A DNA stretch of 64,000 nucleotides from the NCBI GenBank assembly GCA_000999095.1, contig LCFP01000003.1, positions 26,839 to 90,838 on the forward strand, read 5' to 3'. The position numbers were made by a program, and so were the translations under genes. The stretch comes from Candidatus Gottesmanbacteria bacterium GW2011_GWA2_43_14 (GTDB lineage: Bacteria > Patescibacteriota > Microgenomatia > 2-02-FULL-39-11). Each line of letters starts with the position of its first letter. Within the stretch, counting starts at the first letter, position 1. Below the pieces are notes generated by a model. The model was not told the DNA's origin. It saw only the letters and a program-made list of their open reading frames with translations, and did not search any database. Shown piece by piece: positions 9,852-48,874 of the stretch.

Positions 9852-9859
9852 ACTGCCTC

Positions 9860-12310: not shown

Positions 12311-15300
12311 ATGTCCAAGCTGAAAAAAGTATTTCATATTTCAATCATCATTCCAACTCTTAACGAAGAAAAGAATATCAAACCTTTGCTTGAGAGGATT
12401 GACGGAGCTTTAAAGGAGACGGCAATTGATTATGAGGTTATTTTTATTGATGACAGGTCAACAGACAAGACCTGTCAAATGATTAAGTTCTTCCAGCCTG
12501 CCTATCCAGTTTCCCTTTATCTTAAGAAAGGAAAAAAAGGCAAGGCTTTTTCCATACTAGAAGGCATTGAATATGCCAAGCACGATTTAATCGTGCTTTT
12601 GGACGGTGATTTGCAGTACGGGCCTGAAAATATACCGGTGATGGTGGTGAAAAGCAACAGGTTCGGAGTCGTGGTCGGCAACCGCAGGAAAAACAGGAAC
12701 GGTATTTTCCGTAAAATTGCCTCACGGATTAATACTGTTGTGACAAGTAAAATGCTATTAGGGATTGAGGCTGATACACAATCAGGCCTCAAAGTCGTCC
12801 GTAAAGAAATTTTCAATCATCTGGATCGAAGTAATATCGGCCCCTGGTCTCTGGATATTCCGCTTCTGAATACCGCTTACGAGTTGGGGTATGACATCGG
12901 TTCCGTCGATATAACCTTTGACAAAAGAATAAACGGAACTTCCAAAATAAATTTCCTGACAGCAGCAATTGAAATTCTTTCGGGGGCGGTAAAAGTAAAG
13001 CTTCACAGGAAGAAGGTTTACCCTATTACACCTTTGAAAAACGGGTCAATGCTTGGTGCCGGTATCGTTCATAAACGCCGGAATTACATAACCCATACCA
13101 CTCTTTCCCAAAAACAAAGCGCCATAGCCACTTTGACTTTCCCCCAGTTGATGTTTCTGGCAGTGATTTTCATAATATTTGCCGCCGGACTTCTGTTCAA
13201 CCCGCTGGGTCTTTTGAAGCTGACAGTGGCTATTATATCCTCGGTTTATTTTATTGATGTGATTTTCAACCTGTTCCTGCTTTCCAAAAGTTTAAAAAAA
13301 GATATTGAAATAAAAATATCTTCGGATGAGCTAAGACAATTGGATGTAACAAATTTACCCCTTTATTCAATCCTCTGTCCTTTGTATCGGGAAGCACACC
13401 TTATTCCGCAATTTGTAAAATCTCTTGATCAATTGGATTGGCCAAAAGACAAATTGGAAGTGGTTCTGCTCTTGGAAGCCGATGATTCTGAAACAATTGA
13501 TAAGGTCAGGCAAATCAAGCTGCCCGGCTATATCCGCAGCGAAATTGTTCCCGAATCTGAACCCAAGACCAAACCCAAAGCCTGCAATTACGGTTTAAAT
13601 ATCATCAGGGGTGAATATGTGGTCATTTATGATGCGGAAGACATACCGGATCCGCAACAATTAATGAAAGCCTATCTCGGTTTTGCCAAAGCCGGTCCCC
13701 GCGTCATCTGTCTGCAGGCCAAGCTCAATTATTACAATCCGAACCAGAATCTATTAACCAGATTGTTCACGGCTGAATATTCGTTATGGTTCGATATCAT
13801 CCTGCCGGGACTGCAGTCGATTGAAACCAGCATCCCATTGGGTGGCACTAGCAATCATTTCCGAAGGCAGGATTTGCTCAACCTTAAAGCTTGGGATCCT
13901 TTTAACGTGACGGAAGATTGCGATTTGGGGGTAAGGCTTTTTAAAAAAGGTTTTAAAACAGCCATTTTTGATTCAACCACCATGGAAGAAGCCAACAGCA
14001 ATGCCAAGAATTGGTTAAGACAGCGGTCACGCTGGATAAAAGGTTACATCCAGACATATTTGGTACACATGCGGCATCCTTTCGCCTATCTTAAAGAGCA
14101 CGGAACCCATGCCCTGATTTTCCAGTTGATTATAGGTGGACGTATCGCTTTTCTTTTCATAAACCCCTTTCTTTGGCTGGCTACCATTTCCTATTTTGCC
14201 CTTCGTGCCCAGGTCGGGGCGGCCATTGAAGCAGTTTATCCTGCGGCTGTTTTCTATATTGCCGTTTCTTCCCTGGTTTTCGGCAATTTCATGTACCTCT
14301 ACTATTACATGATCGCCTGCGCTAAAAAAAATCACTGGCATCTGGTGAAATATATCTTCCTGGTTCCTTTTTATTGGCTGATGGCCTCAGTCAGTGCGGG
14401 TCTGGCTCTGGTGCAAATTATCTTCAAGCCGTTTTATTGGGAAAAAACCATCCACGGCTTCCATCTCTCAATCCCGATCCAGGATTTTGTGGCGGCAGAA
14501 AAGCCAAAAAGGGCCAGGTTTTCATATTTGTACAAATTTATGCATATCGGCAGGATGAAGTTCCAAAATATGCTTAATTTTCTCGATTTGATATTTGGCC
14601 AGCAGACACCCGACATAAAACCAAACGGCAAACCGCGGATCCTGATTTTCAATTGGCGCGACATCAGGCATACCTGGGCAGGCGGAGCGGAAAGCTATAT
14701 CCATAATATAGCCGCCCAATGGGTCCGGCAGGGAAGCAAGGTTACCATATTTTGCGGTAATGACGGAACCCAAGAAAAGACTGATGAAATTGACGGAGTC
14801 AGAATTATCAGGCGGGGAGGTTTTTATTCATTATATTTCTGGGCAGTTTTATACTACATTTTCCATCTGCGCCGAAGCGTGGATATAGTGGTGGACTCGG
14901 GTAACGGCATTCCCTTTTTCACTCCGCTTTATGTTTTTAAACCCAAGTACCTGCTGATTTACCACATGCACCAGGAAGTTTTCCGCAGGCACCTGCCTCT
15001 GGTTTTATCAAACCTGGCCCAATTTTTAGAAAGAAGGTTAGTGCCTTTTATTTACAGGAACCAGAAAATAATTACCATTTCCGAATCTTCTAAAGAAGAA
15101 ATTGTCCGCCTTAGACTGGCTGATCCTAACAACGTTTTTATCGTAAATCCGGGCATTGATTTCGAAAAGTTCAATCTGCTGCCCAAAACAGATTTTCCGC
15201 TGATTACTTATTTGGGCAGATTGAAACCATATAAAAACATACATATCGTAATTGAAGCCTTTGTACATATTCTTTACAGGCATCCGGATGCCCAGCTGTT

Positions 15301-15772
15301 TATCGCGGGCAGCGGAGAAAGCCAATTTTTTCTCAATGATCTGGTTGCCAAATTGGGAATAGGTGAGAGCGTCTTTATTATAGGCAAAGTGTCCGAAATG
15401 GAGAAGAGAGCGCTTCTGGCCAGAAGCTGGCTGGTTGTCCAACCTTCTTCTGCTGAAGGATGGGGAATGACCGTCATTGAAGCCAATGCAGCCGGCACAC
15501 CGGTCGTTGCTTCGGATATACCGGGGCTTAGGGATTCAGTCATTCATAAATCCACCGGCATTTTGGTACCGGCAGGAGATATTATGGCTTTTACCGAAGC
15601 TATTAATTCTTTAATCTCCGACCGACGTATCCTGGACCGGTTGGCAATCAGCGCTTACAGCTGGGCGAAAAATTTCAATTGGAAGGAAAGCAGTGAAAAA
15701 TTTTACCGGCTGATAAATTATTCTCCGGAGCCTTACTTTTCCCTGGAATTTAAACGATTGGAACTGAATTAA
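12311..15772 (+). CDS. triple-domain glycosyltransferase: N-terminal GT2 (DPM-synthase-like) + membrane-embedded processive GT2 (cellulose/chitin-synthase-like; DAED, TED, QRSRW motifs) + C-terminal GT4
   Basis: ISIIIPTLNEE…FIDDRSTD (GT-A); YDAEDIPD…TEDCDLGVRL…QRSRWIKGY with flanking TM helices; C-terminal GT-B (E…G…AAGTPVVASDIPG) region. Confidence 0.75.
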   Translation: MSKLKKVFHISIIIPTLNEEKNIKPLLERIDGALKETAIDYEVIFIDDRSTDKTCQMIKFFQPAYPVSLYLKKGKKGKAFSILEGIEYAKHDLIVLLDGDLQYGPENIPVMVVKSNRFGVVVGNRRKNRNGIFRKIASRINTVVTSKMLLGIEADTQSGLKVVRKEIFNHLDRSNIGPWSLDIPLLNTAYELGYDIGSVDITFDKRINGTSKINFLTAAIEILSGAVKVKLHRKKVYPITPLKNGSMLGAGIVHKRRNYITHTTLSQKQSAIATLTFPQLMFLAVIFIIFAAGLLFNPLGLLKLTVAIISSVYFIDVIFNLFLLSKSLKKDIEIKISSDELRQLDVTNLPLYSILCPLYREAHLIPQFVKSLDQLDWPKDKLEVVLLLEADDSETIDKVRQIKLPGYIRSEIVPESEPKTKPKACNYGLNIIRGEYVVIYDAEDIPDPQQLMKAYLGFAKAGPRVICLQAKLNYYNPNQNLLTRLFTAEYSLWFDIILPGLQSIETSIPLGGTSNHFRRQDLLNLKAWDPFNVTEDCDLGVRLFKKGFKTAIFDSTTMEEANSNAKNWLRQRSRWIKGYIQTYLVHMRHPFAYLKEHGTHALIFQLIIGGRIAFLFINPFLWLATISYFALRAQVGAAIEAVYPAAVFYIAVSSLVFGNFMYLYYYMIACAKKNHWHLVKYIFLVPFYWLMASVSAGLALVQIIFKPFYWEKTIHGFHLSIPIQDFVAAEKPKRARFSYLYKFMHIGRMKFQNMLNFLDLIFGQQTPDIKPNGKPRILIFNWRDIRHTWAGGAESYIHNIAAQWVRQGSKVTIFCGNDGTQEKTDEIDGVRIIRRGGFYSLYFWAVLYYIFHLRRSVDIVVDSGNGIPFFTPLYVFKPKYLLIYHMHQEVFRRHLPLVLSNLAQFLERRLVPFIYRNQKIITISESSKEEIVRLRLADPNNVFIVNPGIDFEKFNLLPKTDFPLITYLGRLKPYKNIHIVIEAFVHILYRHPDAQLFIAGSGESQFFLNDLVAKLGIGESVFIIGKVSEMEKRALLARSWLVVQPSSAEGWGMTVIEANAAGTPVVASDIPGLRDSVIHKSTGILVPAGDIMAFTEAINSLISDRRILDRLAISAYSWAKNFNWKESSEKFYRLINYSPEPYFSLEFKRLELN

Positions 15773-15776: not shown

Positions 15777-16892
15777 ATGAAAATCTGTTTTTTCGGTACT
15801 TACTTCGCCAATTACGCCAGAAACACATCCATTAGGGAAGGGTTAAAAAGGTGTGGAATTGAAGTCGCGGAAGTCCATGCTGAAATTGCCAATATCCCCA
15901 TGGATCAATCAAACGACGTCACGCTTTTCAAAGTATTCTACCGGTTTGCCAGAAAAATCAAGGTGTACATACGGCTTTTATCACGGTACCGGGAAGTATT
16001 GTCGGCTGATTATATTTTTGTCCTGCATCCCGGCCATTTTGATCTGCCGTTTGCCTGGATACTGTCAAAACTCGGGGGTAAAAAGCTGTTTTTTGACTCC
16101 AGCATTTCCCACTATGACACGATGTTCGTCGGCGAGACGATCGGCAATCGCAGAACCCTCAAAGCCAAAATCATCAAATTGGCGGAAAAATTCTGCCTTC
16201 TGTTTCCCGATAGAATCTTTGTTGATACCGAAGCGATGAAGGATTTTATGGTCAGTGAGTTCAAAATCAGTGAGGAAAAAATATTCGTTGTTCCCCTCGG
16301 GGCAAATGACACTCTCTATAAACCAAACGGTAAAGTAAAACATAACGGCACAACTGATGTCTTTTTTTTCGGACTTTACAACCGGATGCAAGGCGCCGAT
16401 ATCATTATGAAAGCTATCAATCTCCTCAAAGAAGACAGCGATATTGCATTCACCATGCTCGGCGACGGATCTCTGAAAACCGAATTTGTTGAATTTGCCA
16501 GGAATCATAATCTGACTAATGTCCATTTCGTTGGTTTCGTCCCGGAAAAAGAACTTGTTTCCCACTTGCAGCAGGCTGATATAGCCCTAGGTGTGTTTTC
16601 CAACAGCCCTGTTTTTCAGAGAGTTATACCGAATAAAGTTTTTGCTGCCTTGGCTTGCGCCAAACCCCTTATCACAGCAAGGTATCAAGTACTGGAAGAA
16701 GTTTTGCATCACGAATATAATGTCTTTTTCTGTAAACCGGAGAATCCGGAGGATCTGGCAAAGGCAATCAGGAGTGTATCCCGCAACAGACGTCTGCAGG
16801 AAACTCTGTCGCAAAACGGCTATGTACTTTATAAAAGAAACTTTACACCCGATAAGATCGGAAAAACGTTAGCGGATCATCTTCATAACTGA
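15777..16892 (+). CDS. GT-B-fold glycosyltransferase (GT4-like C-terminal domain)
   Basis: C-terminal region LGVFSNSPVFQRVIPNKVFAALACAKPLI…; paralogue of 21840..22979. Confidence 0.6.
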   Translation: MKICFFGTYFANYARNTSIREGLKRCGIEVAEVHAEIANIPMDQSNDVTLFKVFYRFARKIKVYIRLLSRYREVLSADYIFVLHPGHFDLPFAWILSKLGGKKLFFDSSISHYDTMFVGETIGNRRTLKAKIIKLAEKFCLLFPDRIFVDTEAMKDFMVSEFKISEEKIFVVPLGANDTLYKPNGKVKHNGTTDVFFFGLYNRMQGADIIMKAINLLKEDSDIAFTMLGDGSLKTEFVEFARNHNLTNVHFVGFVPEKELVSHLQQADIALGVFSNSPVFQRVIPNKVFAALACAKPLITARYQVLEEVLHHEYNVFFCKPENPEDLAKAIRSVSRNRRLQETLSQNGYVLYKRNFTPDKIGKTLADHLHN

Positions 16893-16904: not shown

Positions 16905-18530
16905 ATGAAAAGACTTCTCGGTTATGCCATCTTTACAGTGTATTGTATCTTTATTCTCGTCCTCTCGATCAGGGGTATACCGGGTAATCCGGCGGAAAAA
17001 ACACTCAATGACCCGCGTTGGGGGGAAGAAGGGCCGTTTGAGCTTTCACCCGAACGCGGAAGGTTTGCACTTCTCGTCTCGCTTATAGAGAATAAATCAT
17101 TTCATTTTTCACTACCCATTGCCAGGTTCGCCATTCCTGATCTTGGATATACCCAGGGGAATTATGTTTCATTGTTTGCTCCCGGACTTTCGATTATCTC
17201 CATTCCCGGATACCTCATCGGAAAATACTACAATAATTCACAGATAGGCACTTATGCCGTAGTAAGCTTGTTTGCCGTATTGAATGCCATTTTAATCAGA
17301 GCGCTGGCGCAACGCGCTGGGAGTACGAGCATTGCCTCCTCGCTTGCGGCACTAGTTTTTCTGTTTGCCACACCTGCTTATGCCTACGCCGTCTCTTTTT
17401 ACCAGCATCATCTTTCAACTTTTTTAATTCTAATTTCAATTTACCTCCTGATAACACTTAAAGGCGTCTTACCGCTTTATCTTCTGTGGATTCTCTTCGG
17501 AATTGCCCTTATTACCGATTATCCGAATGTTATTCTGATGCTTCCGATACTGTTATTTGCTTTAAAGAATTTAATTTATTTGGTAAATGACAACGGCAAA
17601 ACAATTGTAAATGTCAGAATTCTTGGTTTTATTTCATTAATAACAATTCTTATCCCTTTGTTTTTTCTGTTTTGGTTTAATCAAAATTCGTACGGCAATC
17701 CCATGAGTTTGGCCGGAACAGTTACTGCTGTTAAATCAATAGACAAGTCCGGAAGACCGGAGTTACCCAAAGTAGCTGGAGGTCAAAAAACAGCGGTCGG
17801 TTTTTTTAAATCCCGAAATATGTTCAACGGGATAAATATACTTCTGTTCAGTCCAGACAGGGGATTGTTTATTTATACTCCGGTTGTCCTGTTCAGTTTA
17901 TTTGGTATATGGGCAGCTTATAAAAAAAACCTGTATCTTTATCCGCTGTTCACAGCCCTTATCAGTATCAATATACTGCTATATTCCATGTGGGGAGATC
18001 CCTGGGGAGGTTGGGCATTCGGCTCCCGTTATCTTATCCCCGGTTTTGCCATAGCCTCCATATTTATAGCCATAGCCCTTACCCGTTATCACAGAAATAT
18101 TATCTTTTTTTTAATCTTTTTTATAACTTTAAGCTATTCTTTAGCAATTAATACATTGGGTGCTTTGACTTCCAACCGAAATCCTCCCCTGTCAGAAATA
18201 AAAGCATTGGAAAAGCTGTCGGGGAAAGCGGAAAAATATACTTACGAACGAAATTTAGATCTGTTATTAAACGGGGTATCAAAATCATATTTATTCCAAT
18301 CCTATGGTTCTAAATTTTTCAGTCCGGTTGAATATTACCGCCTGATTGTTTTTATGTTGGCGGCAGTCTGTTTTTTTCTGATTGTCGCGGATAACCTGTC
18401 TATTTTTAAAAATTACCATATGGAAAAAAGAGGCTGGCAAAAACTCATAATATATAAGAAACAACCGACGAAATACCAGCTTTCACATTTAGTAAATTTG
18501 TTCTTTATCAAAATAATGAAGCCAATCTAA
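16905..18530 (+). CDS. polytopic membrane glycosyltransferase, GT-C fold (PMT/ArnT-like); paralogue of 24074..25642
   Basis: 541 aa, more than 10 TM; shared motif MWGDPWGGWAFGSRYLIPG with paralogue. Confidence 0.6.
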   Translation: MKRLLGYAIFTVYCIFILVLSIRGIPGNPAEKTLNDPRWGEEGPFELSPERGRFALLVSLIENKSFHFSLPIARFAIPDLGYTQGNYVSLFAPGLSIISIPGYLIGKYYNNSQIGTYAVVSLFAVLNAILIRALAQRAGSTSIASSLAALVFLFATPAYAYAVSFYQHHLSTFLILISIYLLITLKGVLPLYLLWILFGIALITDYPNVILMLPILLFALKNLIYLVNDNGKTIVNVRILGFISLITILIPLFFLFWFNQNSYGNPMSLAGTVTAVKSIDKSGRPELPKVAGGQKTAVGFFKSRNMFNGINILLFSPDRGLFIYTPVVLFSLFGIWAAYKKNLYLYPLFTALISINILLYSMWGDPWGGWAFGSRYLIPGFAIASIFIAIALTRYHRNIIFFLIFFITLSYSLAINTLGALTSNRNPPLSEIKALEKLSGKAEKYTYERNLDLLLNGVSKSYLFQSYGSKFFSPVEYYRLIVFMLAAVCFFLIVADNLSIFKNYHMEKRGWQKLIIYKKQPTKYQLSHLVNLFFIKIMKPI

Positions 18531-18540: not shown

Positions 18541-19449
18541 GTGAAAAAACTCACGGTTACCATAGGAATTTCGGCTTATAACGAGGAAGGAAATATCGCT
18601 AAAATCCTAAAGTCGGTTATTTCTCAAAAGGAAAAAACGATTCAAATCAGCGAAATCCTTGTTTATTCTGACGGATCGACAGATCGGACTGTTCCAACTG
18701 CCAAGTCATTTAAGGACAAACGGATCCGGGTCGTCAATGACAAAATTCGACGCGGGAAAGCATTCCGGCTGAATCATATATTTTCTGTTATGAAAGGTGA
18801 TGTGCTCGTTCTTTTTGATGCCGATACGGTTCCTGTCAATTCCGAGATGCTTGAGTATATCTGCCGTCCATTCCATAGAAGATCATTCATTGGGCTTGCC
18901 GGAGGCCGTAGATATTCAATTCCTACGACTTCACTTACGGGTACCTCTTTGGCTAACTTATTTCACGCTTATGATGTGGTCCGGAAGGAGCTGCGAAACG
19001 GCATTAACATATATTGCTTTTTAGCCGGCATCACTGCTCTCTCACGTGATTTTGCCAAAGCGTTAACTCTTCCTCTTGATTCACCCTGTGATGATAATTT
19101 CATCTATCTTGAAGCGAAAAAGCGAGGGTTTTCCTTAGCATATGTACCCGAGGCGATCGTTTGGTTTTCCCCTCCGCAATCTGCATCCGATCAAATTTCG
19201 CAGGGTTCAAGATACCTGGCCAGCAGTTCGATATTAAGCAGATATTTTAATTCGACGTACGTCAAAGGCGAATTTTACGTTCCTTTTTATCTTCGCCTGA
19301 AAGTTTTCCTTTATCAGGTAAGACATAATCCCATTGCATTTCTGTGGTTAAAATGCTTGGCAGCCGTTTGCCACATACAAAACTTCAAAACCCAAAGACA
19401 TGTGAACGGTCTATACAGGAATGTATATTCAACTAAGAGATTGACATGA
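18541..19449 (+). CDS. GT2-family glycosyltransferase (GTG start)
   Basis: TIGISAYNEEGNI…VYSDGSTD GT-A signature. Confidence 0.7.
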   Translation: MKKLTVTIGISAYNEEGNIAKILKSVISQKEKTIQISEILVYSDGSTDRTVPTAKSFKDKRIRVVNDKIRRGKAFRLNHIFSVMKGDVLVLFDADTVPVNSEMLEYICRPFHRRSFIGLAGGRRYSIPTTSLTGTSLANLFHAYDVVRKELRNGINIYCFLAGITALSRDFAKALTLPLDSPCDDNFIYLEAKKRGFSLAYVPEAIVWFSPPQSASDQISQGSRYLASSSILSRYFNSTYVKGEFYVPFYLRLKVFLYQVRHNPIAFLWLKCLAAVCHIQNFKTQRHVNGLYRNVYSTKRLT

Positions 19450-20354
19450 AAACGCCGGCCGTTTCCATAGGCATTCCCACATATGAAGCGGGAATAAGCC
19501 TGATCAGAACTCTGAATTCAATTTTCAATCAATCCGCATTTTCCCAAATACGGGAAGTCATTATCGTAGTTGACGGAAATACTCTCACTCCCCAAGTTAG
19601 AAACAGATTGCGACATCCTAAAGTGCGCATTGTCATGCGACCCGAAAGAATGGGTCAATCTTCTTGCCTGAATTACATTTTTTCCCGGGTTCATAACGGG
19701 TTGCTTCTACTGACCAATGACGATGTTGTTCTTGATAAGCATGCTACCAAGAACTTCATAGAATGCTATATAGCACAAAGACCTGATTTTTTGGCGGCAC
19801 AAGCCAAGCCGTTACCGCCCAAAAGTCTGTTTGAGCGTATATTGTTTGCCGGTCAAACGATTAATACGCGTATCGCTTCGCGCTGGTTAAATGGTGATAA
19901 TTATCTGTCGGTGAACGGAAGAATGATCGCACTCTCCAGACGATTGTATTCAAATATATCTATCCCACCCGGATTATGGAATAACGATGCTTATATCTAT
20001 CTATACGCAAAATTGAAAAACCTAGGGTTTATTAATGTCAACAACGCGAGAGTATATTATAAACTTCCCGGAAACGTGGCAGACCATCTGCGTCAAAGTT
20101 ATAAATTTCACCTGTCGCAACGCGAAAACGAAATCTACTTTCATGATTCACTTACACGATTCTACAAAATTCCCGTATCACTTTCGATAAAGGCTATGAT
20201 ACATACACTTTTTGATCAACCGGTTTTTACTCCGCTTTATATAGTTTTTTCGGCTCTGACCCGTATATGGTTAACGATATCTCATCAATCACTTCCCAAT
20301 ACCGGATATTGGAATACTGACAGGTCGACAAAACTGCTGGGAGGTAAGTTATGA
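19446..20354 (+). CDS. GT2-family glycosyltransferase, tandem paralogue of upstream gene
   Basis: SIGIPTYEAG…VVDGNT; 4-bp overlap; same length (302 aa) as neighbour. Confidence 0.7.
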   Translation: MKTPAVSIGIPTYEAGISLIRTLNSIFNQSAFSQIREVIIVVDGNTLTPQVRNRLRHPKVRIVMRPERMGQSSCLNYIFSRVHNGLLLLTNDDVVLDKHATKNFIECYIAQRPDFLAAQAKPLPPKSLFERILFAGQTINTRIASRWLNGDNYLSVNGRMIALSRRLYSNISIPPGLWNNDAYIYLYAKLKNLGFINVNNARVYYKLPGNVADHLRQSYKFHLSQRENEIYFHDSLTRFYKIPVSLSIKAMIHTLFDQPVFTPLYIVFSALTRIWLTISHQSLPNTGYWNTDRSTKLLGGKL

Positions 20355-20476
20355 ATTCATTTTTTACCGATAGGTGTGATTTTCTTAAGAAGTTATTACC
20401 AATGTAAAGTATGAATCAGGCATAAAATTGTCATAAATGAATGATACGGAGGGGTTTATCCTCTCCTTATTAATCT

Positions 20477-21839: not shown

Positions 21840-22979
21840 ATGAAAATTCTTTACTTCGGCTCTTATGACAATGATTACATTAGAAACGTTATTAATATAA
21901 AAGGTCTCAGATTAAACCTAGTTGATGTAATAGTATGTAATTTTTATAAAAGAAAATTATTTATAGCATCTGAATATTCGAAAATTACTTATCTAATTAG
22001 AATTTCTACTTCATTGTTTTACCGTTCGATTTATCTTTTTTTTAAAGGAATAATTATTATTATTAAGCAAAAAATTTCATATATCATTATTGGATTTCCT
22101 GGTCATCTTGATATTCCGATAGGCTATCTTATCGCAAAAATAACCGGTAGCAAAATAATTTTTGATCCTTTTATATCGCTATATGATACCTTTGTAACTG
22201 ACAGAAAAATTTTTAGCACTGACTCCTTAATTTCAAAAAGCATAAAAAAGTACGAAACCGCAATATATAAACTTCCAGATTTAATTTTGACACATACAGA
22301 GACTGATAAGTTATATTTCTCAAAAAGTTTCAAGATCCCCTTGAATAAGATCAAAGTTCTTTACATTGGAAGTGATAATTTAACGCAAAAAACCACTGCG
22401 CTCACCGGGAAATCTTCCGATTTTTCAGTTGTATATCAAGGCAACTTTATTCCATTACACGGAATTGAACATATTATTCATTCTGCATTTATTCTGAGTC
22501 AAATAGATAAAAAAATTAAATTTATATTCGTTGGAAACGGACAAACATATCAAGAAAATTTTAATCTCGCAAACATATTAAAACTTAGAAATGTTGTTTT
22601 TAAAGGATTCGTTTCAATATATGACTGGAAAAAAACAATTAATAAGGCCGATATTATATTAGGGATTTTCCAAAATTCGGTGAAGGCTTCTAAATCGATA
22701 CCAAATAAAGTAATTCAAGGAATTGCAGCTAAAAAAGCCGTAATTACCGCAGAAACTACAGCAATTAAAGAATTATTTAATCACTTTGAAAATATGTATT
22801 TCTGCAAACCAGCAGATCCTCTCTCTTTAGCGAACGGAATATTAGAACTAAAAAGAAATTCGAATCTAAGGAATAAAATCGCTTATAACGGGAATAAAAT
22901 ATACAAAAATAAACTAACGCCAATTTCAGTAGGGCGTGAGTTACTGACTATTTGTAACGAGTTTCAAAATTCAAATTAA
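21840..22979 (+). CDS. GT-B-fold glycosyltransferase, AT-rich paralogue of 15777..16892
   Basis: Aligned N-terminus MKILYFGSYDNDY vs MKICFFGTYFANY and C-terminal …IPNKV…FCKPADP; local GC about 28%. Confidence 0.6.
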   Translation: MKILYFGSYDNDYIRNVINIKGLRLNLVDVIVCNFYKRKLFIASEYSKITYLIRISTSLFYRSIYLFFKGIIIIIKQKISYIIIGFPGHLDIPIGYLIAKITGSKIIFDPFISLYDTFVTDRKIFSTDSLISKSIKKYETAIYKLPDLILTHTETDKLYFSKSFKIPLNKIKVLYIGSDNLTQKTTALTGKSSDFSVVYQGNFIPLHGIEHIIHSAFILSQIDKKIKFIFVGNGQTYQENFNLANILKLRNVVFKGFVSIYDWKKTINKADIILGIFQNSVKASKSIPNKVIQGIAAKKAVITAETTAIKELFNHFENMYFCKPADPLSLANGILELKRNSNLRNKIAYNGNKIYKNKLTPISVGRELLTICNEFQNSN

Positions 22980-22980
22980 A

Positions 22981-24069
22981 ATGAAAATAATAATTTCTAA
23001 TTACGATGAAATAAAAAATCCTTATTATGGCGGAGGAGGAGCTATGAGTAATCATAAAATCGGTAAATATTTAGCGGAAAAAAATGAAGTAATGATTATT
23101 TGTGGCGCATTTAAAGGCTGCAGGAACGGTGTTGTAGAAGGTGTATTTTATAAACATATTGGTATAAAAAGATTTGGTCCAATTTTGGGACAGATATTCT
23201 TTTCGTTATTACTGCCCGTATTCGCGTTGATAGAAAATTATGATTTATGGGTAGAAAATTTTGTACCGCCTCATTCTACCAATTTCATTCCAATTTTCAC
23301 CAATAAACCCGTCGTGGGGGTCAGTTCACTCTTGCACGCAAAAGAATTTAGTCAAAAATATGGAATCCCGTTTTATTTAATAGAAAATTTAGGTCTAAAA
23401 TTCTATAAGAATATCCTTGTATTGAGTAATGAATATGCTAAAAAAGTCCAAAAAATCAATAAAAAAGCGAAAATAGTAGAAATTCCAAGGGGGGTAGATG
23501 ACGCTTATTTTGAAATTAAAGGAAATGAGAACAACTATATATTGTATTTAGCGCGAATTGATATTTTCCAAAAAGGTTTAGATTTATTGTTGAAAGCATG
23601 GAAAAAAGTAGTTTATAGGTATCCGCATATCAAATTAGTTATAGCAGGAAATACTACATTTGCAGAAGAAAGAAAATTCAAGCAAATCGTTGATCAACTT
23701 TCATTAGATAAAAATGTTAAGTATATAGGATTGGTAAAAGGAGAAAAAAAAAGAACCCTATTATCAAACTCTCTTTGTGTGATCAGTCCATCACGGTTTG
23801 AAAGCTTCGGCAATTCATCATTGGAAACATTAGCAGCAGGGAAATGCTTAATAGTATTTGATATACCCGGTTATTGCTGGATACCGGAAAATGTTTCAGT
23901 AAAAATAAAGTCGGTAAATTTCAATTTGTTAGCTGTGGCAATTGAAAGAGTCATTTCCAATAAAGAATTAAGAATTAAGTACGGAAAACTAGCAAGGAAT
24001 TTTGCTGAAAATTATAGATGGAAAAAAATATTTAAATTGTACGAAGCTTATTTTTTAAATGTAAATTAA
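22981..24069 (+). CDS. GT4-family glycosyltransferase
   Basis: GT4 motifs (…ESFGNSSLETLAAGKCLIVFDIPG…); AT-rich. Confidence 0.7.
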   Translation: MKIIISNYDEIKNPYYGGGGAMSNHKIGKYLAEKNEVMIICGAFKGCRNGVVEGVFYKHIGIKRFGPILGQIFFSLLLPVFALIENYDLWVENFVPPHSTNFIPIFTNKPVVGVSSLLHAKEFSQKYGIPFYLIENLGLKFYKNILVLSNEYAKKVQKINKKAKIVEIPRGVDDAYFEIKGNENNYILYLARIDIFQKGLDLLLKAWKKVVYRYPHIKLVIAGNTTFAEERKFKQIVDQLSLDKNVKYIGLVKGEKKRTLLSNSLCVISPSRFESFGNSSLETLAAGKCLIVFDIPGYCWIPENVSVKIKSVNFNLLAVAIERVISNKELRIKYGKLARNFAENYRWKKIFKLYEAYFLNVN

Positions 24070-24073: not shown

Positions 24074-25642
24074 ATGAAGCTCTTAAAAGCAATTAGTTTT
24101 ATTTCATTTTGCATTGCGATATCCGTCTTATTAACTCTCACAATAAAGGGTAACGAAGGTAACCCTTTACCCTTTCAAAACGATCATAATACTAAGGTGG
24201 GGGGGCCATTTGAAGCATCCAACACAACTTCAAGGTATGCTTTAACTTTGGCAATTGCTGAAAACGGATCATTTTTTCTCAATGAAGATTTGGCCAAGTT
24301 TGCTTCACCTGATGTAGTCAAATATAAAGACATGTATATGTCAATCTTTGCGCCCGGAGTATCATTTATAGTAATTCCATTTTATCTTTTTGGAAAAAAA
24401 CTGGGACTTCCTCAGGTAGTTACATTTTTAAGCGTAACTTTCTTTGCCTTATTCAATCTTTTTTTAATAGCCTGGATTTCCATAAAACTGGGATCCGGAT
24501 TCTGGACGGGTTTTTTGGGCGGATTTATTTTCTTATTCGGTACCAATGCCTTGTCATATGCACAAACACTTTCCCAGCACCATTTTACTGTGACAGTTGC
24601 ACTCCTGGCAATAATTACGGCCATGGGTAAACGGACCCTTATCAAAAATATCTGGTTCGGGATATTGTTTGGACTTGGTGTATTGGTAGATATTCCCAAT
24701 GTTTTTCTACTGGCTCCGATTCTTATTTATATTCTGTACAGGCAATTCTATCGGGAGATTTCTGCTGAAATTATTCGAGTCAACATGTCCTTAAATTTTA
24801 TCGGGTTAATTTTAGGAGTGCTGCCGTTTATTGCCTTATTTGCCTGGTATAACAGAGCTACCACCGGTTCATACACAATGCTTGCGCAATCAATCGGTCG
24901 GATGGAAGAGCATGGGGAAACGTTCTCTCAAAGTGATTCAGTAATCCTTCGGGAACAAAAAGATGTCAGAGCTCCGAAAGGAATCCGATTACCTTTTAAT
25001 CCAAGAAAACAGTTAGCCGGAGCGTACACATTATTTATAAGTGATGAAAGATCATGGATATATTACAGTCCGGTAGTCCTTTTAGGTATTTTTGGTCTTT
25101 TTAAACTTCTTAAAAATCAAAAATACAGAGAATTTGCAGCAGTTTCATTGTCAGTGATTTTTCTTAACGGTATTATGTATTCCATGTTTGGAGACCCCTG
25201 GGGGGGTTGGGCATTCGGACCCAGGTATTTAATTCCGGCGGGAGCGCTGTTGTCTATCGGATTAAGCATAATTTATACCAATTGGAACAGGAATATTCTT
25301 TTTATGTTGATTTTTGTGATTTTGGCTATTTATAGTCTGCGCATCAATACTCTCGGTGTGACAACAACCACTATGATTCCGCCGAAGATAGAGGCAATTA
25401 ATCTTCCTAAACCTATACCTTACACCTACGACTATAACTTCCAGCTTCTGAATAAGAATATCTCCAGTTCACTAATTTATAATCGCTTCTTGTCTAAAAA
25501 ACTGACTGCCACAGATTATTCTTACAGGCTCTTCATATCTGTTTCTTCGGTTTTTCTATTACTCACAATAGCTTCTTATTTCGAAATAAAAACATTAATT
25601 AAGAAATCTCATTACAGGAAGATATATATAAATAACATATGA
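24074..25642 (+). CDS. polytopic membrane glycosyltransferase, GT-C fold; paralogue of 16905..18530
   Basis: 522 aa, more than 10 TM; MFGDPWGGWAFGPRYLIPAG motif shared. Confidence 0.6.
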   Translation: MKLLKAISFISFCIAISVLLTLTIKGNEGNPLPFQNDHNTKVGGPFEASNTTSRYALTLAIAENGSFFLNEDLAKFASPDVVKYKDMYMSIFAPGVSFIVIPFYLFGKKLGLPQVVTFLSVTFFALFNLFLIAWISIKLGSGFWTGFLGGFIFLFGTNALSYAQTLSQHHFTVTVALLAIITAMGKRTLIKNIWFGILFGLGVLVDIPNVFLLAPILIYILYRQFYREISAEIIRVNMSLNFIGLILGVLPFIALFAWYNRATTGSYTMLAQSIGRMEEHGETFSQSDSVILREQKDVRAPKGIRLPFNPRKQLAGAYTLFISDERSWIYYSPVVLLGIFGLFKLLKNQKYREFAAVSLSVIFLNGIMYSMFGDPWGGWAFGPRYLIPAGALLSIGLSIIYTNWNRNILFMLIFVILAIYSLRINTLGVTTTTMIPPKIEAINLPKPIPYTYDYNFQLLNKNISSSLIYNRFLSKKLTATDYSYRLFISVSSVFLLLTIASYFEIKTLIKKSHYRKIYINNI

Positions 25643-27258
25643 ATATTCTAAATTTGCGGTTTTCCATAAAAAAAGGCTCATTAGATAAAATAAGCGAATG
25701 GGAAAGCAGGATGCCGTTATTACTTCTGGGTATTTTAGCGATCTTGTCCATTGTCTGTTTTTACATTTTTTATGATAACGGGCTCGGACTTTCCTACAAC
25801 GATGCCCGGTCGCATCTGGACATCGGAAGACGCGTGGTTGAAGGATTAAAACCCGGGTTGGCCCAACTCGGATCAGTCTGGCTGCCTCTGCCTCACCTTC
25901 TTATGATTCCGACAATTTGGCATGATTTTATGTGGCATACCGGGCTTTCGGGAGCATTGCCCTCGATGCTTTCATTTGTGGCTACATCTCTCTTGATCTA
26001 TTTTTTTCTGCAAAAACTGGGTGTCGGCTTATCCGGAAAAATACTGGGGGTTGCCGTATTTGTCGCCAATCTCAATGTCCTGTATCTCCAGTCAACAGCC
26101 ATGACGGAACTGCTTCTCCTGGCAACCATGACTGCCGGTATGTATGAGCTTTTAAAGTGGAGCATGGATGAAAATTTCCTCAATCTTATTAAATCCGCTT
26201 TTTGGATCATGCTTTCCTCCCTTGTCAGATATGAAGGCTGGTTTCTGCTGCTTTATGCAGCCTTTCTGATAATTTTCATTATGGTGAGGAAAAAAGGCTA
26301 TAAAGTAACGGAAGGCACCTTGATTCTTTTCGGAACTTTGGCAGGAGTTGGTATTCTGTTATGGTTTCTCTGGAATACTTTGATTTTCAATGATCCCTTA
26401 TATTTTGCCTACGGTCCTTTCTCAGCCCGCACCCAGCAGAAACAAATGGAACTGGCCGGTGTCTTATCTACAAAAAACAATTTATTGTTATCCCTGAAAG
26501 TCTATCTATTTGCCTTAATCTATAATTCTTATGCCTATAATGCCGTTTTGGGACTTATAGGAGCAATAGTATTTTTCACCGATAAAAATATTAAACCTCA
26601 TGTCAGGTTTGCAGCTACTGTTTTGCTTACTCCATTAATATTCAACGTTTTAGCACTTTTCATGGGTCACTCTGTTCTATTTATACAGGGAATTTCAGGC
26701 GATACCTGGTTTAACGTCCGTTACGGTCTGATGATGCTGCCTTCAATTGCCATTTTTGCGGGCTACCTCGTCCATAAAGCCAAGTCATTAAGAGTAACCA
26801 TAATCGGATTATTTGTCTTTGTTATTTTTTTTGCATTTACCAACGGTGATGCAGTCACAATTGATGATGCAAGAGTCGGCTCCAGCCAGAAAAATGTCTC
26901 AGAGGTAAGCGGTTATCTGAACACCCATGCCAAAAATACAAAGGGATTTGTGCTTATTTCGGCAGCTTCACACGACGCCATTATTTTTTCATCAGGACTT
27001 CCCATGAAAAGATTTATCCATGAAGGAACAGGCGGCTATTGGGAATCGGCAACAGGCAGTCCTGACAGATGGGCGCGCTGGATAGTCGTACGCACCAACG
27101 ACAATAATGACTTAACCTGGAAATCCCTTTCCGAAGCACCGGATTCCATATCAAAATACAAACTGGCCGCCAAATATCCTTTTGCCGATGTTTACGAATT
27201 GAAAAAAGAATACCTGGCGGAATTAATCACGGAGCCGATTCTCGGAAAACAAAAATAA
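25639..27258 (+). CDS. polytopic membrane protein with C-terminal extracytoplasmic domain (possible GT-C-like)
   Basis: 539 aa, about 11 TM then soluble domain; 4-bp overlap with upstream GT-C gene. Confidence 0.45.
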   Translation: MNILNLRFSIKKGSLDKISEWESRMPLLLLGILAILSIVCFYIFYDNGLGLSYNDARSHLDIGRRVVEGLKPGLAQLGSVWLPLPHLLMIPTIWHDFMWHTGLSGALPSMLSFVATSLLIYFFLQKLGVGLSGKILGVAVFVANLNVLYLQSTAMTELLLLATMTAGMYELLKWSMDENFLNLIKSAFWIMLSSLVRYEGWFLLLYAAFLIIFIMVRKKGYKVTEGTLILFGTLAGVGILLWFLWNTLIFNDPLYFAYGPFSARTQQKQMELAGVLSTKNNLLLSLKVYLFALIYNSYAYNAVLGLIGAIVFFTDKNIKPHVRFAATVLLTPLIFNVLALFMGHSVLFIQGISGDTWFNVRYGLMMLPSIAIFAGYLVHKAKSLRVTIIGLFVFVIFFAFTNGDAVTIDDARVGSSQKNVSEVSGYLNTHAKNTKGFVLISAASHDAIIFSSGLPMKRFIHEGTGGYWESATGSPDRWARWIVVRTNDNNDLTWKSLSEAPDSISKYKLAAKYPFADVYELKKEYLAELITEPILGKQK

Positions 27259-33658: not shown

Positions 33659-33727
33659 ATATTTTCTTACTTTTTGCGCCAAACCTGATTATTGCCGGGC
33701 TTATCGGCCTGGGGTTTCTGGGTTAAG

Positions 33728-34249: not shown

Positions 34250-34274
34250 TTGATTCTTTCGTTCATATACGGAA

Positions 34275-34799: not shown

Positions 34800-35110
34800 T
34801 ATTCCTCGTCTCTTTTGATGAAGCGGTAGGAATTGATTGGGATTTCCGCCTGGGGATTTTCCTCATACAGAAATGCCAATTGTTGATCTTCAAATATTCT
34901 GAAAAATTCATTCCAATCGATATTCTGGCCTTTTTTTGCATCGCTGAGATAAATCTCATCATCTTTGCCCGGAAAATCAATTCTCAGGCCGGTTTTATCC
35001 GAAGCATAAGGATCCTCGATTTTTTGCGGACGTCCCCTTACTTTTTCTACCCAGGTAATTATAAATTGATGGTCTGTCGTTTTTTTCAATGCATTTAACA
35101 TAGAAGACAA
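34799..35110 (-). CDS. hypothetical cytoplasmic protein, translationally coupled to msrA
   Basis: 103-aa ORF; stop overlaps msrA start by 1 nt. Confidence 0.5.
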   Translation of the reverse strand: MSSMLNALKKTTDHQFIITWVEKVRGRPQKIEDPYASDKTGLRIDFPGKDDEIYLSDAKKGQNIDWNEFFRIFEDQQLAFLYEENPQAEIPINSYRFIKRDEE

Positions 35111-48865: not shown

Positions 48866-48874
48866 TATAGATGA

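What the first reader, a model, noticed from the sequence alone, without database searches (positions are those of the whole stretch)
12311..15772. 1153-aa single-polypeptide GT2 + processive membrane GT2 (TED/QRSRW) + GT4 fusion
Three catalytic glycosyltransferase modules are fused in one protein. The first is a DPM-synthase-like GT-A domain. The second is a cellulose/chitin-synthase-like processive GT2 core with YDAEDIPD, TEDCDLG and QRSRW motifs flanked by TM helices. The third is a C-terminal GT4 GT-B domain. This arrangement could carry out initiation, polymerisation and decoration of a polysaccharide within one enzyme.
Basis: partly seen in the sequence, partly recalled or inferred. Interest (0 to 1): 0.65.

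Follow-up and report, generated by a model that had tools for sequence, protein, structure and literature searches.

The report
Three-module membrane glycosyltransferase fusion, CPR bacterium
The 1,153-residue protein is a real fusion of three sugar-transferring enzymes in a candidate-phyla-radiation bacterium. It is a trimmed version of a four-part protein common in that lineage, and it most likely builds, and helps decorate, a cell-surface sugar polymer.

Summary
Window 12311-15772 (+) is one uninterrupted 1,153-aa ORF, identical to a Candidatus Gottesmanbacteria protein named only 'family 2 glycosyl transferase'.

It has three intact catalytic modules:
- d1: a DPMS/ArnC/GtrB-like GT2.
- d2: a membrane-embedded GT2 like BcsA, NfrB or HAS, carrying DAED, TED and QRSRW.
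- d3: a GT4 with an EX7E motif.

The fusion is not an assembly artefact.
- This is the minority short form. Most relatives (~1,560 aa) carry a ~400-aa MOP (MurJ/Wzx-fold) flippase-like module between d2 and d3. That site is a disordered linker here.
- d2 is the conserved core. Orthologs at 43-52% identity occur in Bacillota, Actinomycetota and Chloroflexota, fused there to c-di-GMP-binding MshEN domains or to a GT-C-like membrane domain. That domain is homologous to window gene 25639-27258.

In Paenibacillus macquariensis the same parts form an operon: MshEN-d2, a small GtrB-type GT2, GtrA and a PMT_2 enzyme.

Best reading (inferred): d2 polymerises, and probably exports, a glycan; d1 makes a polyprenyl-phosphate sugar for outside-facing GT-C partners; the GT4 role is unclear. 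'Initiation, polymerisation, decoration' is only partly supported. This is a new variant of known kinds; interest is moderate.

The parts
12311..15772 (+). Complete ORF of the 1,153-aa tri-modular glycosyltransferase (stop codon included).
   Evidence: Identical to P0001.
12311..13015 (+). Module d1 (res 1-235): a GT-A domain like DPMS, ArnC or GtrB, with invariant D48, D98-x-D100, D155 and Q157, plus an amphipathic helix at 215-231.
13016..13138 (+). Conserved linker between d1 and d2 (res 236-276), with a beta-hairpin and invariant G251 and H262 (T261 is nearly invariant).
13139..13297 (+). N-terminal transmembrane hairpin of d2 (res 277-329), containing the conserved YFIDV motif (Y313, D316). 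NfrB shows the same motif.
   Evidence: Hydropathy. Helices 277-296 and 298-329 in the model. NfrB alignment. d2-only relatives start just before this hairpin.
13328..14068 (+). Module d2 catalytic core (res 340-586). It carries DAED 441-444 (nt 13631-13642), PLGGTSNHF 509-517, TED 534-536 (nt 13910-13918), and QRSRW 571-575 (nt 14021-14035) on the interface helix 565-586.
14105..14425 (+). C-terminal membrane helices of d2 (res 599-630, 645-672, 676-705). The last one is probably an interface helix equivalent to BcsA IF3.
   Evidence: Topology is inferred, not resolved.
14426..14458 (+). Conserved motif KPFYWEKTIHG (res 706-716), with P707, W710, K712, T713, H715 and G716 invariant. It is proposed to be the counterpart of the BcsA gating loop FxVTxKG.
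   Evidence: Invariance. Pattern and spacing match E. coli BcsA FNVTAKG. The equivalence is an inference.
14474..14611 (+). Disordered linker (res 722-767). This is the site where about 95% of close relatives carry a ~400-aa MOP flippase-like module. Only the post-MOP amphipathic helix (739-762) is retained here.
   Evidence: pLDDT below 50. Alignment gap. Insert identified as PF01943 in 6 of 18 relatives and as a MurJ/WzxE/MATE fold.
14636..15718 (+). Module d3 (res 776-1136): a GT4 GT-B glycosyltransferase with an EX7E motif at E1049-E1057 (nt 15455-15481).
25639..27258 (+). Conserved partner gene: a 539-aa polytopic membrane protein with a soluble C-terminal part, GT-C-like (PMT_2-related).
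   Evidence: Present in 39 of 83 loci, 57-70% identical in Microgenomates. Fused to d2 in Chloroflexia (E = 2.6e-46) and Ktedonobacteraceae, where Pfam calls it PMT_2. Matches the Paenibacillus operon PMT_2 protein at E = 7e-12. Weak NF047440 hit. No Pfam hit of its own.
16905..18530 (+). 541-aa membrane protein with about 10 TM helices, a paralog of 24074-25642. Putative GT-C-like glycosyltransferase.
   Evidence: 35% identity to 24074-25642. Weak NF047440 hit, E = 1.9e-8. Co-occurs in 30 of 83 loci.
24074..25642 (+). 522-aa membrane protein with about 10 TM helices, a paralog of 16905-18530.
15777..16892 (+). Separate 371-aa GT4 gene starting 4 nt after the stop codon of the fusion gene.
18541..20354 (+). 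Two soluble-type GT2 genes (18541-19449 and 19446-20354). Relatives of these occur in 25 and 18 of the 83 loci.
21840..24069 (+). Two further GT4 genes (21840-22979 and 22981-24069), lying in a low-GC stretch.
27265..28500 (+). 411-aa protein with one N-terminal hydrophobic helix (probable signal peptide or anchor) that closes the cluster. It co-occurs in 15 loci at 29-59% identity.

Best explanation
The gene encodes an intact cytoplasmic-membrane protein of a Candidatus Gottesmanbacteria (Microgenomates, CPR) bacterium. It heads a conserved cell-surface glycan gene cluster.

Shown:
- The protein has three catalytically intact modules.
- It is a natural variant, lacking the MOP module, of a ~1,560-aa family protein with the order GtrB/DPMS-like GT2, BcsA/NfrB-like membrane GT2, MOP flippase-like module, GT4.

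Inferred mechanism:
- d2 uses a nucleotide sugar at the cytoplasmic face to polymerise a beta-linked glycan. It probably threads the glycan across the membrane, as the synthases BcsA, HAS, PgaC and NfrB do.
- d1 transfers a sugar from a nucleotide sugar to polyprenyl (undecaprenyl) phosphate.
- That lipid-linked sugar is flipped. The MOP module would do this in long relatives and a GtrA protein in Paenibacillus. The flippase in this organism is unidentified.
- The flipped sugar is used outside the membrane by GT-C-like partners (25639-27258, probably also 16905-18530 and 24074-25642) to decorate or extend the exported glycan. This is the logic of GtrA/GtrB/GtrC and of CsbB/GtcA/YfhO.
- d3, a retaining GT4, adds an alpha-linked sugar on the cytoplasmic side, either as a primer or anchor or as a second backbone residue. 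This is the least certain step.

The sugars and the final acceptor are unknown.
For: Architecture and intact active sites.

d2 as a synthase-type enzyme:
- Profile versus BcsA E = 7.8e-19, with DxD, TED and QxxRW in register.
- hhalign probabilities: BcsA 98%, NfrB 95%, PgaC 91%.
- NCBIfam PgaC aligned end to end, including the membrane helices.
- A conserved WEKTxHG motif with the pattern and spacing of the BcsA gating loop.
- Orthologs at 43-52% identity in other phyla are fused to MshEN c-di-GMP receptor domains. That arrangement is known from the c-di-GMP-activated exopolysaccharide synthase NfrB (PMC8669469; PMC5013675).

d1 as a polyprenyl-phosphate sugar synthase.

Link between d1, d2, a flippase and GT-C:
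- d1-d2 fusions in the CPR. d2 fused to GT-C in Chloroflexia (E = 2.6e-46) and in Ktedonobacteraceae, where Pfam calls the domain PMT_2.
- The MOP module lies between d2 and d3 in most relatives.
- The Paenibacillus macquariensis operon reads NTP-transferase, MshEN-d2, small GT2, GtrA (PF04138), PMT_2. Its PMT_2 protein matches window gene 25639-27258.
- The 25639-type gene co-occurs in 39 of 83 loci and is 57-70% identical across Microgenomates.
- Split-gene relatives keep the module order d1, d2, MOP, d3.

Lipid carrier: undecaprenyl-diphosphate phosphatase BacA is encoded in the window, so a polyprenyl-phosphate carrier pool is expected.
Against: - There is no biochemical or genetic evidence for any member of this family. 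All public names are generic.
- d2 has few membrane helices (2 + 2-3). I could not inspect the model for a channel.
- Hydropathy predicts three hydrophobic helices after the catalytic core. If all three cross the membrane, the GT4 would lie outside the cell. A cytosolic GT4 depends on my inference that helix 676-705 is an interface helix.
- The window has no recognisable flippase, neither MOP nor GtrA.
- The GT-C assignment of the partner proteins rests on weak family hits and on homology to PMT_2-annotated domains, not on a structure.
- The cluster holds five further soluble GT2 and GT4 genes. That would fit stepwise assembly of a lipid-linked oligosaccharide at least as well.
Confidence: 0.45

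Rival explanations
1. A lipid-linked oligosaccharide assembly line, similar to archaeal Agl glycosylation or a Wzx-type pathway. d1 puts the first sugar on polyprenyl phosphate, as AglJ does. d2, d3 and the neighbouring GT2 and GT4 enzymes each add one or a few sugars to the lipid-linked glycan at the cytoplasmic face, so d2 would be non-processive like PcManGT. The MOP module flips the finished lipid-linked glycan. A GT-C enzyme (25639-27258, or the PMT_2/STT3-like 1540-2982) transfers it en bloc to a protein, the wall or a lipid.
For: - MOP-family proteins (Wzx, MurJ) typically flip lipid-linked oligosaccharides. The insert has that fold and PF01943 signature.
- NCBIfam hits to AglJ for d1 and to full-length Agl16 for d3.
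- There are five extra GT2 and GT4 genes in the cluster.
- A PMT_2 protein with a weak STT3 hit lies at 1540-2982.
Against: - d2 orthologs elsewhere are fused to c-di-GMP receptor domains, as the polymer synthase NfrB is.
- d2 keeps QRSRW, the G-x-x-x-F-R-type motif and a motif like the gating loop. Its best structural match is BcsA, including the membrane helices.
- In Paenibacillus the associated flippase is of GtrA type. By established knowledge of Gtr and GtcA systems, that type serves polyprenyl-phosphate monosaccharides.
- The MOP module has been lost at least twice without loss of the rest of the protein.
Confidence: 0.25
2. A lipoglycan pathway of the mycobacterial PIM/LM/LAM type. The GT4 module and the neighbouring GT4 enzymes glycosylate a membrane lipid anchor in the cytoplasm. 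The intermediate is flipped. d1 supplies polyprenyl-phosphate sugar, and the several GT-C-like proteins extend the glycan outside the cell. d2 contributes a further membrane-associated transfer step.
For: - d3 hits PimA and PimB'.
- d1 resembles Ppm1/DPMS-type enzymes.
- There are four to five GT-C-like membrane proteins in the window.
- Relatives carry a flippase module.
Against: - GT4 similarity is generic. SPS, BshA and PglA score higher than PimA.
- This model gives no role to the best-conserved module, d2. It also does not explain d2's fusion to MshEN or to GT-C in other phyla.
- No lipid-anchor-specific feature was found.
Confidence: 0.1
3. An artefact: the long ORF arises from a frameshift, a misassembly or a chimeric contig that joins separate GT genes, or from an assembly deletion that removed the MOP segment.
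For: - Split versions exist in some relatives' assemblies.
- The short form is rare, 5 of the 120 closest clusters.
Against: - The identical protein is on 3 contigs in several repositories.
- A 61%-identical sister protein (P0002) from a different sample has the same short architecture and the same downstream genes.
- Further short forms occur in Woesebacteria and other MAGs.
- The deletion is in frame and retains the conserved post-MOP helix.
- All modules keep their invariant catalytic residues.
- The AF2 model is confident across the domain junctions, except for the linker.
Confidence: 0.01

Closest known systems
Membrane-integrated processive GT2 synthases: BcsA (cellulose), NfrB (c-di-GMP-activated ManNAc-polymer synthase), PgaC/IcaA (PNAG), class I hyaluronan synthase
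   Same: - d2 has a GT-A core between an N-terminal TM hairpin and C-terminal membrane helices.
- DxD (DAED), TED and QxxRW (QRSRW) align in register.
- There is a G-x-x-x-F-R-type motif (LGGTSNHFR) and a motif like the gating loop.
- NfrB shares the YFIDV, DAED, TEDxDxG and RQ[KR]SRWI motifs.
   Different: - d2 has no PilZ or MshEN regulatory domain in the CPR protein. Non-CPR orthologs have MshEN at the N-terminus, whereas NfrB has it at the C-terminus.
- It has fewer TM helices than BcsA (8), and there is no BcsB, PgaD or NfrA-type partner.
- It is fused to two further glycosyltransferases and, in most relatives, to a MOP module.
- All NCBIfam equivalog scores are far below their cut-offs (for example CelA 72 bits against 699, PgaC 58 against 422). 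It is therefore not a member of any named synthase family.
Three-component extracytoplasmic glycosylation systems: GtrA/GtrB/GtrC (O-antigen glucosylation) and CsbB/GtcA/YfhO (teichoic acid glycosylation); ArnC/ArnT
   Same: - d1 is a GtrB/ArnC/DPMS-type GT2.
- GT-C-like membrane partners are conserved next to the gene.
- Relatives carry a flippase module, and the Paenibacillus operon has a true GtrA plus a PMT_2 enzyme.
   Different: - d1 has no TM helices of its own and is tethered to the synthase module.
- The flippase in the CPR family is MOP-type rather than GtrA or SMR-type, and it is absent from this protein.
- The system is physically fused to the enzyme that presumably makes its substrate polymer.
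PcManGT (PDB 6YV7), a crenarchaeal membrane mannosyltransferase with a 'minimal cellulose-synthase-like fold'
   Different: The sequence match covers only the N-terminal half of the GT-A core. A profile search places BcsA far ahead (7.8e-19 against 4.9e-9). From my own knowledge of the 2020 paper, PcManGT is linked to N-glycan assembly rather than polymer export; I did not read that paper here.
Archaeal Agl N-glycosylation pathway (AglJ, AglD, AglR, AglS, AglB)
   Same: The set of parts is the same: a DPMS-like initiating or donor-forming GT2, further GT2 and GT4 enzymes, a MOP-family flippase (AglR), and GT-C enzymes. NCBIfam gives AglJ and Agl16 hits.
   Different: In archaea these are separate genes and there is no synthase-type QxxRW enzyme. 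The scores are far below the equivalog cut-offs. The comparison rests partly on my own knowledge of the pathway.
Multi-domain polysaccharide polymerases such as K4CP/KfoC chondroitin polymerase and Cps3D
   Same: Several glycosyltransferase domains sit on one polypeptide. K4CP appears as a weak hit to d1 and Cps3D as a weak hit to d3.
   Different: Those enzymes are soluble or peripheral bi-functional polymerases of ABC-transporter-dependent capsule pathways. They have no integral membrane synthase core or flippase module.

Membership tests
Processive membrane GT2 synthases (BcsA/HAS/CHS/PgaC/NfrB type) | Catalytic signature D, DxD, TED and Q(R/Q)xRW. | tested here: met
   D392, D441-A-E-D444, T534-E-D536 and Q571-R-S-R-W575. 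These residues are invariant in 120 relatives except A442, which is nearly invariant. They align with the BcsA, NfrB and PgaC motifs.
Processive membrane GT2 synthases (BcsA/HAS/CHS/PgaC/NfrB type) | GT-A domain embedded between transmembrane helices, with the QxxRW motif on an interface helix. | tested here: met
   Helices 277-329 lie before the core and helices 599-705 after it. QRSRW sits on helix 565-586. BcsA aligns over 391-495 positions, which is beyond the soluble core.
Processive membrane GT2 synthases (BcsA/HAS/CHS/PgaC/NfrB type) | A continuous transmembrane channel that conducts the nascent polymer. | not testable with these tools
   Model coordinates cannot be inspected. Only 2 + 2-3 membrane helices are present. 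The topology after the core is unresolved.
Processive membrane GT2 synthases (BcsA/HAS/CHS/PgaC/NfrB type) | Processive polymer synthesis. | not testable with these tools
   This needs an enzyme assay.
Named synthase equivalogs (CelA TIGR03030, PgaC_IcaA TIGR03937, NfrB-type PRK15489) | Score at or above the curated NCBIfam cut-off. | tested here: not met
   For d2 alone: CelA 71.9 bits against a cut-off of 699.1, PgaC 58.4 against 422.3, PRK15489 21.6 against 537.
Polyprenyl-phosphate glycosyltransferases (DPMS/GtrB/ArnC, GT2) | GT-A domain with DxD and significant similarity to solved members. | tested here: met
Polyprenyl-phosphate glycosyltransferases (DPMS/GtrB/ArnC, GT2) | Own C-terminal TM helices and interface helices that bind the lipid phosphate. 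| tested here: inconclusive
   An amphipathic helix at 215-231 is present. The following TM hairpin belongs to the d2 family, because d2-only relatives and NfrB also have it.
Polyprenyl-phosphate glycosyltransferases (DPMS/GtrB/ArnC, GT2) | Score at or above the curated equivalog cut-off (ArnC, AglJ, PgfS). | tested here: not met
   ArnC 86.4 bits against 529, PgfS 78.2 against 500, AglJ 52.8 against 325.
Three-component Gtr-type glycosylation system | A GtrB-type synthase, a flippase and a GT-C transferase encoded together. | tested here: inconclusive
   The GtrB-type module is met. GT-C-like partners are present but rest on weak hits. No flippase was found in this window. Relatives have a MOP module or GtrA.
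GT4 retaining GT-B glycosyltransferases | Two Rossmann-like halves (PF13439 plus PF00534) and an EX7E motif. | tested here: met
MOP (Wzx/MurJ/MATE) flippase superfamily | A ~12-TM MOP fold within the protein. | tested here: not met
   It is absent from the window protein, where the site is a 46-residue disordered linker. It is present in about 95% of close relatives: PF01943 in 6 of 18, and Foldseek hits to MurJ, WzxE and MATE with TM-scores 0.6-0.73.
GT4-conflict (PF20706, glycosyltransferases of conflict/defence systems) | Best-scoring family on the region, plus a defence-island context. | tested here: not met
   PF20706 gives E = 7.4e-10 and lies under the much stronger PF00534 hit (5e-44). 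The context is a glycan cluster. PADLOC was not run.

The most novel reading that the evidence does not exclude
The conserved pair of d2 (a synthase-type GT2) and the 25639-type GT-C-like membrane protein, together with a GtrB-type enzyme and a flippase, may define a previously unrecognised glycan system spanning several phyla of monoderm-type bacteria. In this system, export of a polymer would be mechanistically coupled to its extracytoplasmic glycosylation from polyprenyl-phosphate sugars. It would be under c-di-GMP control (MshEN) in Bacillota, Actinomycetota and Chloroflexota. In Microgenomates it would be condensed into a single four-module polypeptide that makes a major envelope glycan of these ultrasmall cells.
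Probability: 0.35. Interest if true: 0.7.

Novelty: new variant of a known kind. Interest (0 to 1): 0.5.

Why it matters
Almost nothing is known about the cell envelope of CPR/Patescibacteria, which is their interface with host cells.

- A single, highly conserved polypeptide that combines a synthase-type enzyme, a lipid-sugar donor synthase, usually a flippase, and a GT4 is a compact, testable entry point to a major surface glycan of Microgenomates.
- The partner gene is 65-73% identical among its closest relatives in Microgenomates and other Patescibacteria MAGs.
- The cross-phylum link makes the system experimentally tractable. Orthologous parts form a c-di-GMP-receptor-linked operon in cultured, genetically accessible Paenibacillus, Cohnella and Desulfitobacterium.
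- That operon points to an uncharacterised c-di-GMP-regulated exopolysaccharide pathway in Gram-positive bacteria.
- The natural series of fused, split and MOP-less variants is a ready-made dissection of which modules must act together.

Tried and rejected
- Missing MOP module. I looked for it as a separate gene in the window by tblastn with the P0010 insert. Only the retained linker matched.
- Stand-alone flippase. Pfam scans of 48 other window ORFs found none.
- GtrA homolog. tblastn with the Paenibacillus protein and a scan of small multi-TM ORFs found nothing convincing. The only candidates are a 200-aa 6-TM ORF at 9249-9851 and a 115-aa ORF at 37974-38318, both without family assignment.
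- RNA genes. tRNA and Rfam scans of the window found nothing.
- Promoters and terminators. The scan was uninformative: promoter-like sites were fewer than in shuffles. One terminator-like hairpin at 20448-20466 may split the cluster into two transcription units.
- Partner proteins versus solved structures. Sequence searches for 25639-27258 and 16905-18530 gave no hits.
- Literature. Searches for this architecture in CPR or Patescibacteria, and for synthase/GT-C or flippase-fusion terms, found nothing relevant. The one candidate paper (PMC11340318) was unrelated.
- Artefact reading. Rejected (see rival explanations).
- Defence-system reading. The PF20706 hit lies under the generic GT4 hit, so I rejected it.
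- Four-domain GT2-GT2-GT4-GT4 idea. I first suspected that the longer relatives carried a second GT4 equal to the downstream gene 15777-16892. Pfam and the alignment showed instead that the extra length is a membrane insert.
- Oversized job.

Full report
**Observation**

Window 12311-15772 (+) is a single ATG-started ORF of 1,153 codons with no internal stop. The next gene starts 4 nt after its stop codon. A divergently oriented membrane-protein gene lies 107 nt upstream. The protein is identical to a public entry called only 'family 2 glycosyl transferase [Candidatus Gottesmanbacteria bacterium GW2011_GWA2_43_14]', seen on three contigs. The window therefore comes from a Microgenomates (CPR/Patescibacteria) genome.

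Pfam gives three separate glycosyltransferase regions with very strong scores:
- PF00535 at 11-170.
- PF13641 and PF13632 at 352-631.
- PF13439 plus PF00534 at 791-1116.

An AlphaFold2 model built on 45 relatives is confident (mean pLDDT 84.7). The only long disordered stretch is 722-767.

**The three modules**

d1 (residues 1-235):
- It matches dolichol-phosphate mannose synthase (5mlz, E = 8.5e-22), ArnC and GtrB by sequence.
- The NCBIfam hits are ArnC, PgfS and AglJ, all far below their equivalog cut-offs.

d2 (about 262-720):
- A profile of d2 hits E. coli BcsA at E = 7.8e-19 and Rhodobacter BcsA at 5e-12, with DxD, TED and QxxRW in register.
- hhalign gives 98% probability against BcsA, 95% against NfrB and 91% against PgaC.
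- The NCBIfam PgaC model aligns end to end, including the membrane helices.
- Detailed motifs (YFIDV in the second TM helix, DAED, TEDxDLG, RQRSRWIKG) look most like NfrB.

d3 (776-1136):
- It has an invariant EX7E motif at E1049-E1057.

The key catalytic residues of all three modules are invariant or nearly invariant across 120 relatives, so none of the modules is degenerate.

**Not an artefact, but a reduced form**

More than 2,000 homologs were found. All 120 best clusters are co-linear fusions.
- 114 of them are 1,500-1,650 aa long.
- Only five, including this one, are about 1,150-1,200 aa.

The difference is a ~400-aa polytopic insert between d2 and d3. It falls exactly where the window protein has its disordered linker.
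- The insert matches Pfam Polysacc_synt (PF01943) in 6 of 18 relatives (best E = 2.7e-9).
- An AF2 model of it (pLDDT 82, pTM 0.81) matches MurJ, WzxE and MATE transporters with TM-scores of 0.6-0.73.

The canonical family protein is therefore GtrB/DPMS-like GT2, then synthase-like GT2, then a MOP flippase-like module, then GT4.

A distance tree places the short forms in at least two separate positions, so the MOP module was lost more than once. The closest short relative (P0002, 61% identical, from a different sample) has the same downstream genes. The module is not encoded elsewhere in the window.

**Variation in relatives**

A scan of one genome per species confirmed 595 relatives, and 80 loci were kept. 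Patescibacteria show every combination:
- d1-d2-MOP-d3.
- d1-d2-d3.
- d1-d2.
- d2-MOP-d3.
- d2-d3.
- d2 alone.

Split-gene versions keep the same module order. Several record titles carry labels such as Gammaproteobacteria or Bdellovibrionales. I treat these automated MAG labels with caution.

d2 is the constant core. Orthologs at 43-52% identity occur in Chloroflexota, Actinomycetota, Bacillota and other phyla.
- Many of them have one to six N-terminal MshEN domains, the c-di-GMP receptor domain, often together with DUF4388.
- MshEN fused to a DxD/TED/QxxRW glycosyltransferase is the arrangement of E. coli NfrB, a c-di-GMP-activated exopolysaccharide synthase (PMC8669469). MshEN-glycosyltransferase fusions were also noted when the domain was defined (PMC5013675).
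- These Gram-positive orthologs are all named only 'glycosyltransferase family 2 protein'.

**The conserved partners**

Across the 83 loci, the gene that most often accompanies d2 is a homolog of window gene 25639-27258. It is present in 39 loci and is 57-70% identical across Microgenomates. Among its closest public homologs it is 65-73% identical, and it carries no Pfam domain and no informative name.

The next most frequent companions are the two paralogous ~10-TM proteins (16905-18530 and 24074-25642; 30 loci each), followed by small GT2 and GT4 genes.

The 25639-type protein is linked to d2 by three further observations:
- In Chloroflexia the d2 ortholog is fused at its C-terminus to a 25639-type domain (34% identity, E = 2.6e-46).
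- In Ktedonobacteraceae the same fusion is recognised by Pfam as PMT_2, a GT-C family.
- The PMT_2 protein of the Paenibacillus operon described below matches window gene 25639-27258 (E = 7e-12).

The three window membrane proteins also give weak hits to a putative membrane glycosyltransferase family (NF047440).

In cultured Paenibacillus macquariensis the parts are separate genes in one operon:
- A sugar-phosphate nucleotidyltransferase.
- MshEN-d2.
- A small PF00535 GT2.
- A GtrA-family flippase (PF04138).
- A PMT_2 protein.

Three kinds of evidence therefore tie together a synthase-type GT2, a GtrB-type GT2, a flippase and a GT-C-like enzyme: fusions in the CPR, fusions in Chloroflexota and an operon in Bacillota.

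**Mechanism**

What is shown: the architecture, the intact active sites, the homologies and the conserved partnerships.

What is inferred:
- d2 polymerises a beta-linked glycan at the cytoplasmic face and probably exports it.
- d1 makes a polyprenyl-phosphate sugar.
- That sugar is flipped and is used outside the membrane by the GT-C-like partners to decorate or extend the glycan.
- The GT4 adds an alpha-linked sugar in the cytoplasm. Its role is unclear.

The window encodes BacA/UppP, which fits use of undecaprenyl phosphate as the carrier.

One open point is topology. Hydropathy finds three hydrophobic helices after the d2 core. If all three cross the membrane, the GT4 would be on the wrong side. 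I propose that helix 676-705 corresponds to interface helix IF3 of BcsA, for these reasons:
- The conserved motif YWEKTxHG that follows it (W710, K712, T713, H715 and G716 are invariant) has the same aromatic-x-x-T-x-[K/H]-G pattern as the BcsA gating loop FNVTAKG.
- Its distance from QxxRW is similar: 139 residues here against 124 in BcsA.
- Both flanks of the helix are rich in positive charge.

This is an inference and was not tested on coordinates.

**Rivals**

The main rival is a stepwise lipid-linked oligosaccharide pathway.
- In it, d1 initiates on polyprenyl phosphate, d2 acts non-processively like PcManGT, the MOP module flips the product, and a GT-C enzyme transfers it.
- It is favoured by the MOP module, the many extra glycosyltransferase genes and the AglJ/Agl16 hits.
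- It is disfavoured by the synthase-specific motifs, the c-di-GMP-receptor fusions and the GtrA-type flippase in Paenibacillus.

A lipoglycan pathway of the PIM/LM type is a weaker variant of this idea. An assembly artefact is effectively excluded.

**Comparison with known systems, and novelty**

Each module belongs to a well-known fold class, but none reaches the curated cut-off of any named equivalog family.

I found no paper describing this fusion, the four-module family, or the pairing of d2 with a GT-C-like protein.

I rate it as a new variant of known kinds. It is a real and widespread architecture in the CPR whose specific instance here is a reduced form. It also carries an unexpected link to uncharacterised glycosyltransferase operons in Gram-positive bacteria that are associated with c-di-GMP receptor domains.

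Interest is moderate (0.5). Multi-domain glycosyltransferases are common and the function is inferred. However, the system is highly conserved in a poorly understood lineage and can be tested in cultured relatives.

Noticed in passing
window 22001-24000: GC content drops to 0.30 against about 0.42 for the rest of the window. The dip lies over the two GT4 genes 21840-22979 and 22981-24069. This may be a horizontally exchanged or variable part of the glycan cluster.
   Followed up: no
window 25639-27258: A 539-aa membrane protein with no Pfam domain, named 'hypothetical' or mislabelled 'family 2 glycosyl transferase'. It is 65-73% identical to its closest homologs in Microgenomates and other Patescibacteria MAGs, so it is better conserved than the enzyme modules next to it. 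It is homologous to PMT_2-type domains fused to d2 in Chloroflexota.
   Followed up: partly
window 16905-18530 and 24074-25642: Two paralogous membrane proteins with about 10 TM helices, 35% identical to each other. They have only weak hits to the LA_3751/LA_3752 putative glycosyltransferase family, and both are conserved in 30 of 83 related loci.
   Followed up: partly
window 10974-12203 (-): A 409-aa protein with about 8 TM helices and no hit in Pfam or NCBIfam. It is transcribed divergently from the fusion gene and was not found in the related loci.
   Followed up: partly
window 27265-28500: A 411-aa protein with one N-terminal hydrophobic helix (probable signal peptide or anchor) and a weak C-terminal match to a CarboxypepD_reg-like domain. 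It closes the cluster and co-occurs with the fusion gene in 15 loci at 29-59% identity. Its function is unknown.
   Followed up: partly
window 1540-2982 (-): A 480-aa membrane protein with a PMT_2 hit (E = 5.9e-6) and a weak archaeal STT3 hit. This is a further GT-C-type enzyme, about 9 kb upstream of the cluster.
   Followed up: no
L076 40-4990 and 5525-12471 (Paenibacillus macquariensis): The module NTP-transferase, MshEN-GT2, small GT2 is duplicated in tandem. Only the second copy is followed by GtrA and PMT_2 genes. A DUF4004 gene and a bactofilin gene lie immediately downstream.
   Followed up: partly
L021 25-13405 (MAG labelled Saccharimonadales): Three paralogous d1-d2 genes lie in one locus. 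Two of them are each followed directly by a 25639-type gene. In the third copy the MOP module is encoded after d3 rather than before it.
   Followed up: no
L051 5256-9395 (Chloroflexi MAG): A 1,380-aa d2 ortholog carries six MshEN repeats at its N-terminus. Many ~1,200-1,335-aa representatives with d2 at the C-terminus appear in the 50%-identity library.
   Followed up: no
window 33065-37590 and 44457-56553: A dense set of envelope genes: a YkuD L,D-transpeptidase, a sortase, BacA/UppP, a GH18 enzyme, an S11 D-Ala-D-Ala carboxypeptidase and two class A penicillin-binding proteins. This fits a Gram-positive-type wall.
   Followed up: no
window 60190-61479 and 3033-3722: A 429-aa protein resembling a NiFe-hydrogenase large subunit (PF00374), and a carotenoid-biosynthesis-family membrane protein (PF04240). 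Neither is obviously expected in a reduced CPR genome.
   Followed up: no
window 9249-9851 and 9731-10993: The listed TTG start of the histidine-kinase ORF overlaps the preceding 6-TM ORF by about 120 nt, so the true kinase start is probably further downstream. The 200-aa 6-TM protein has no family assignment.
   Followed up: no
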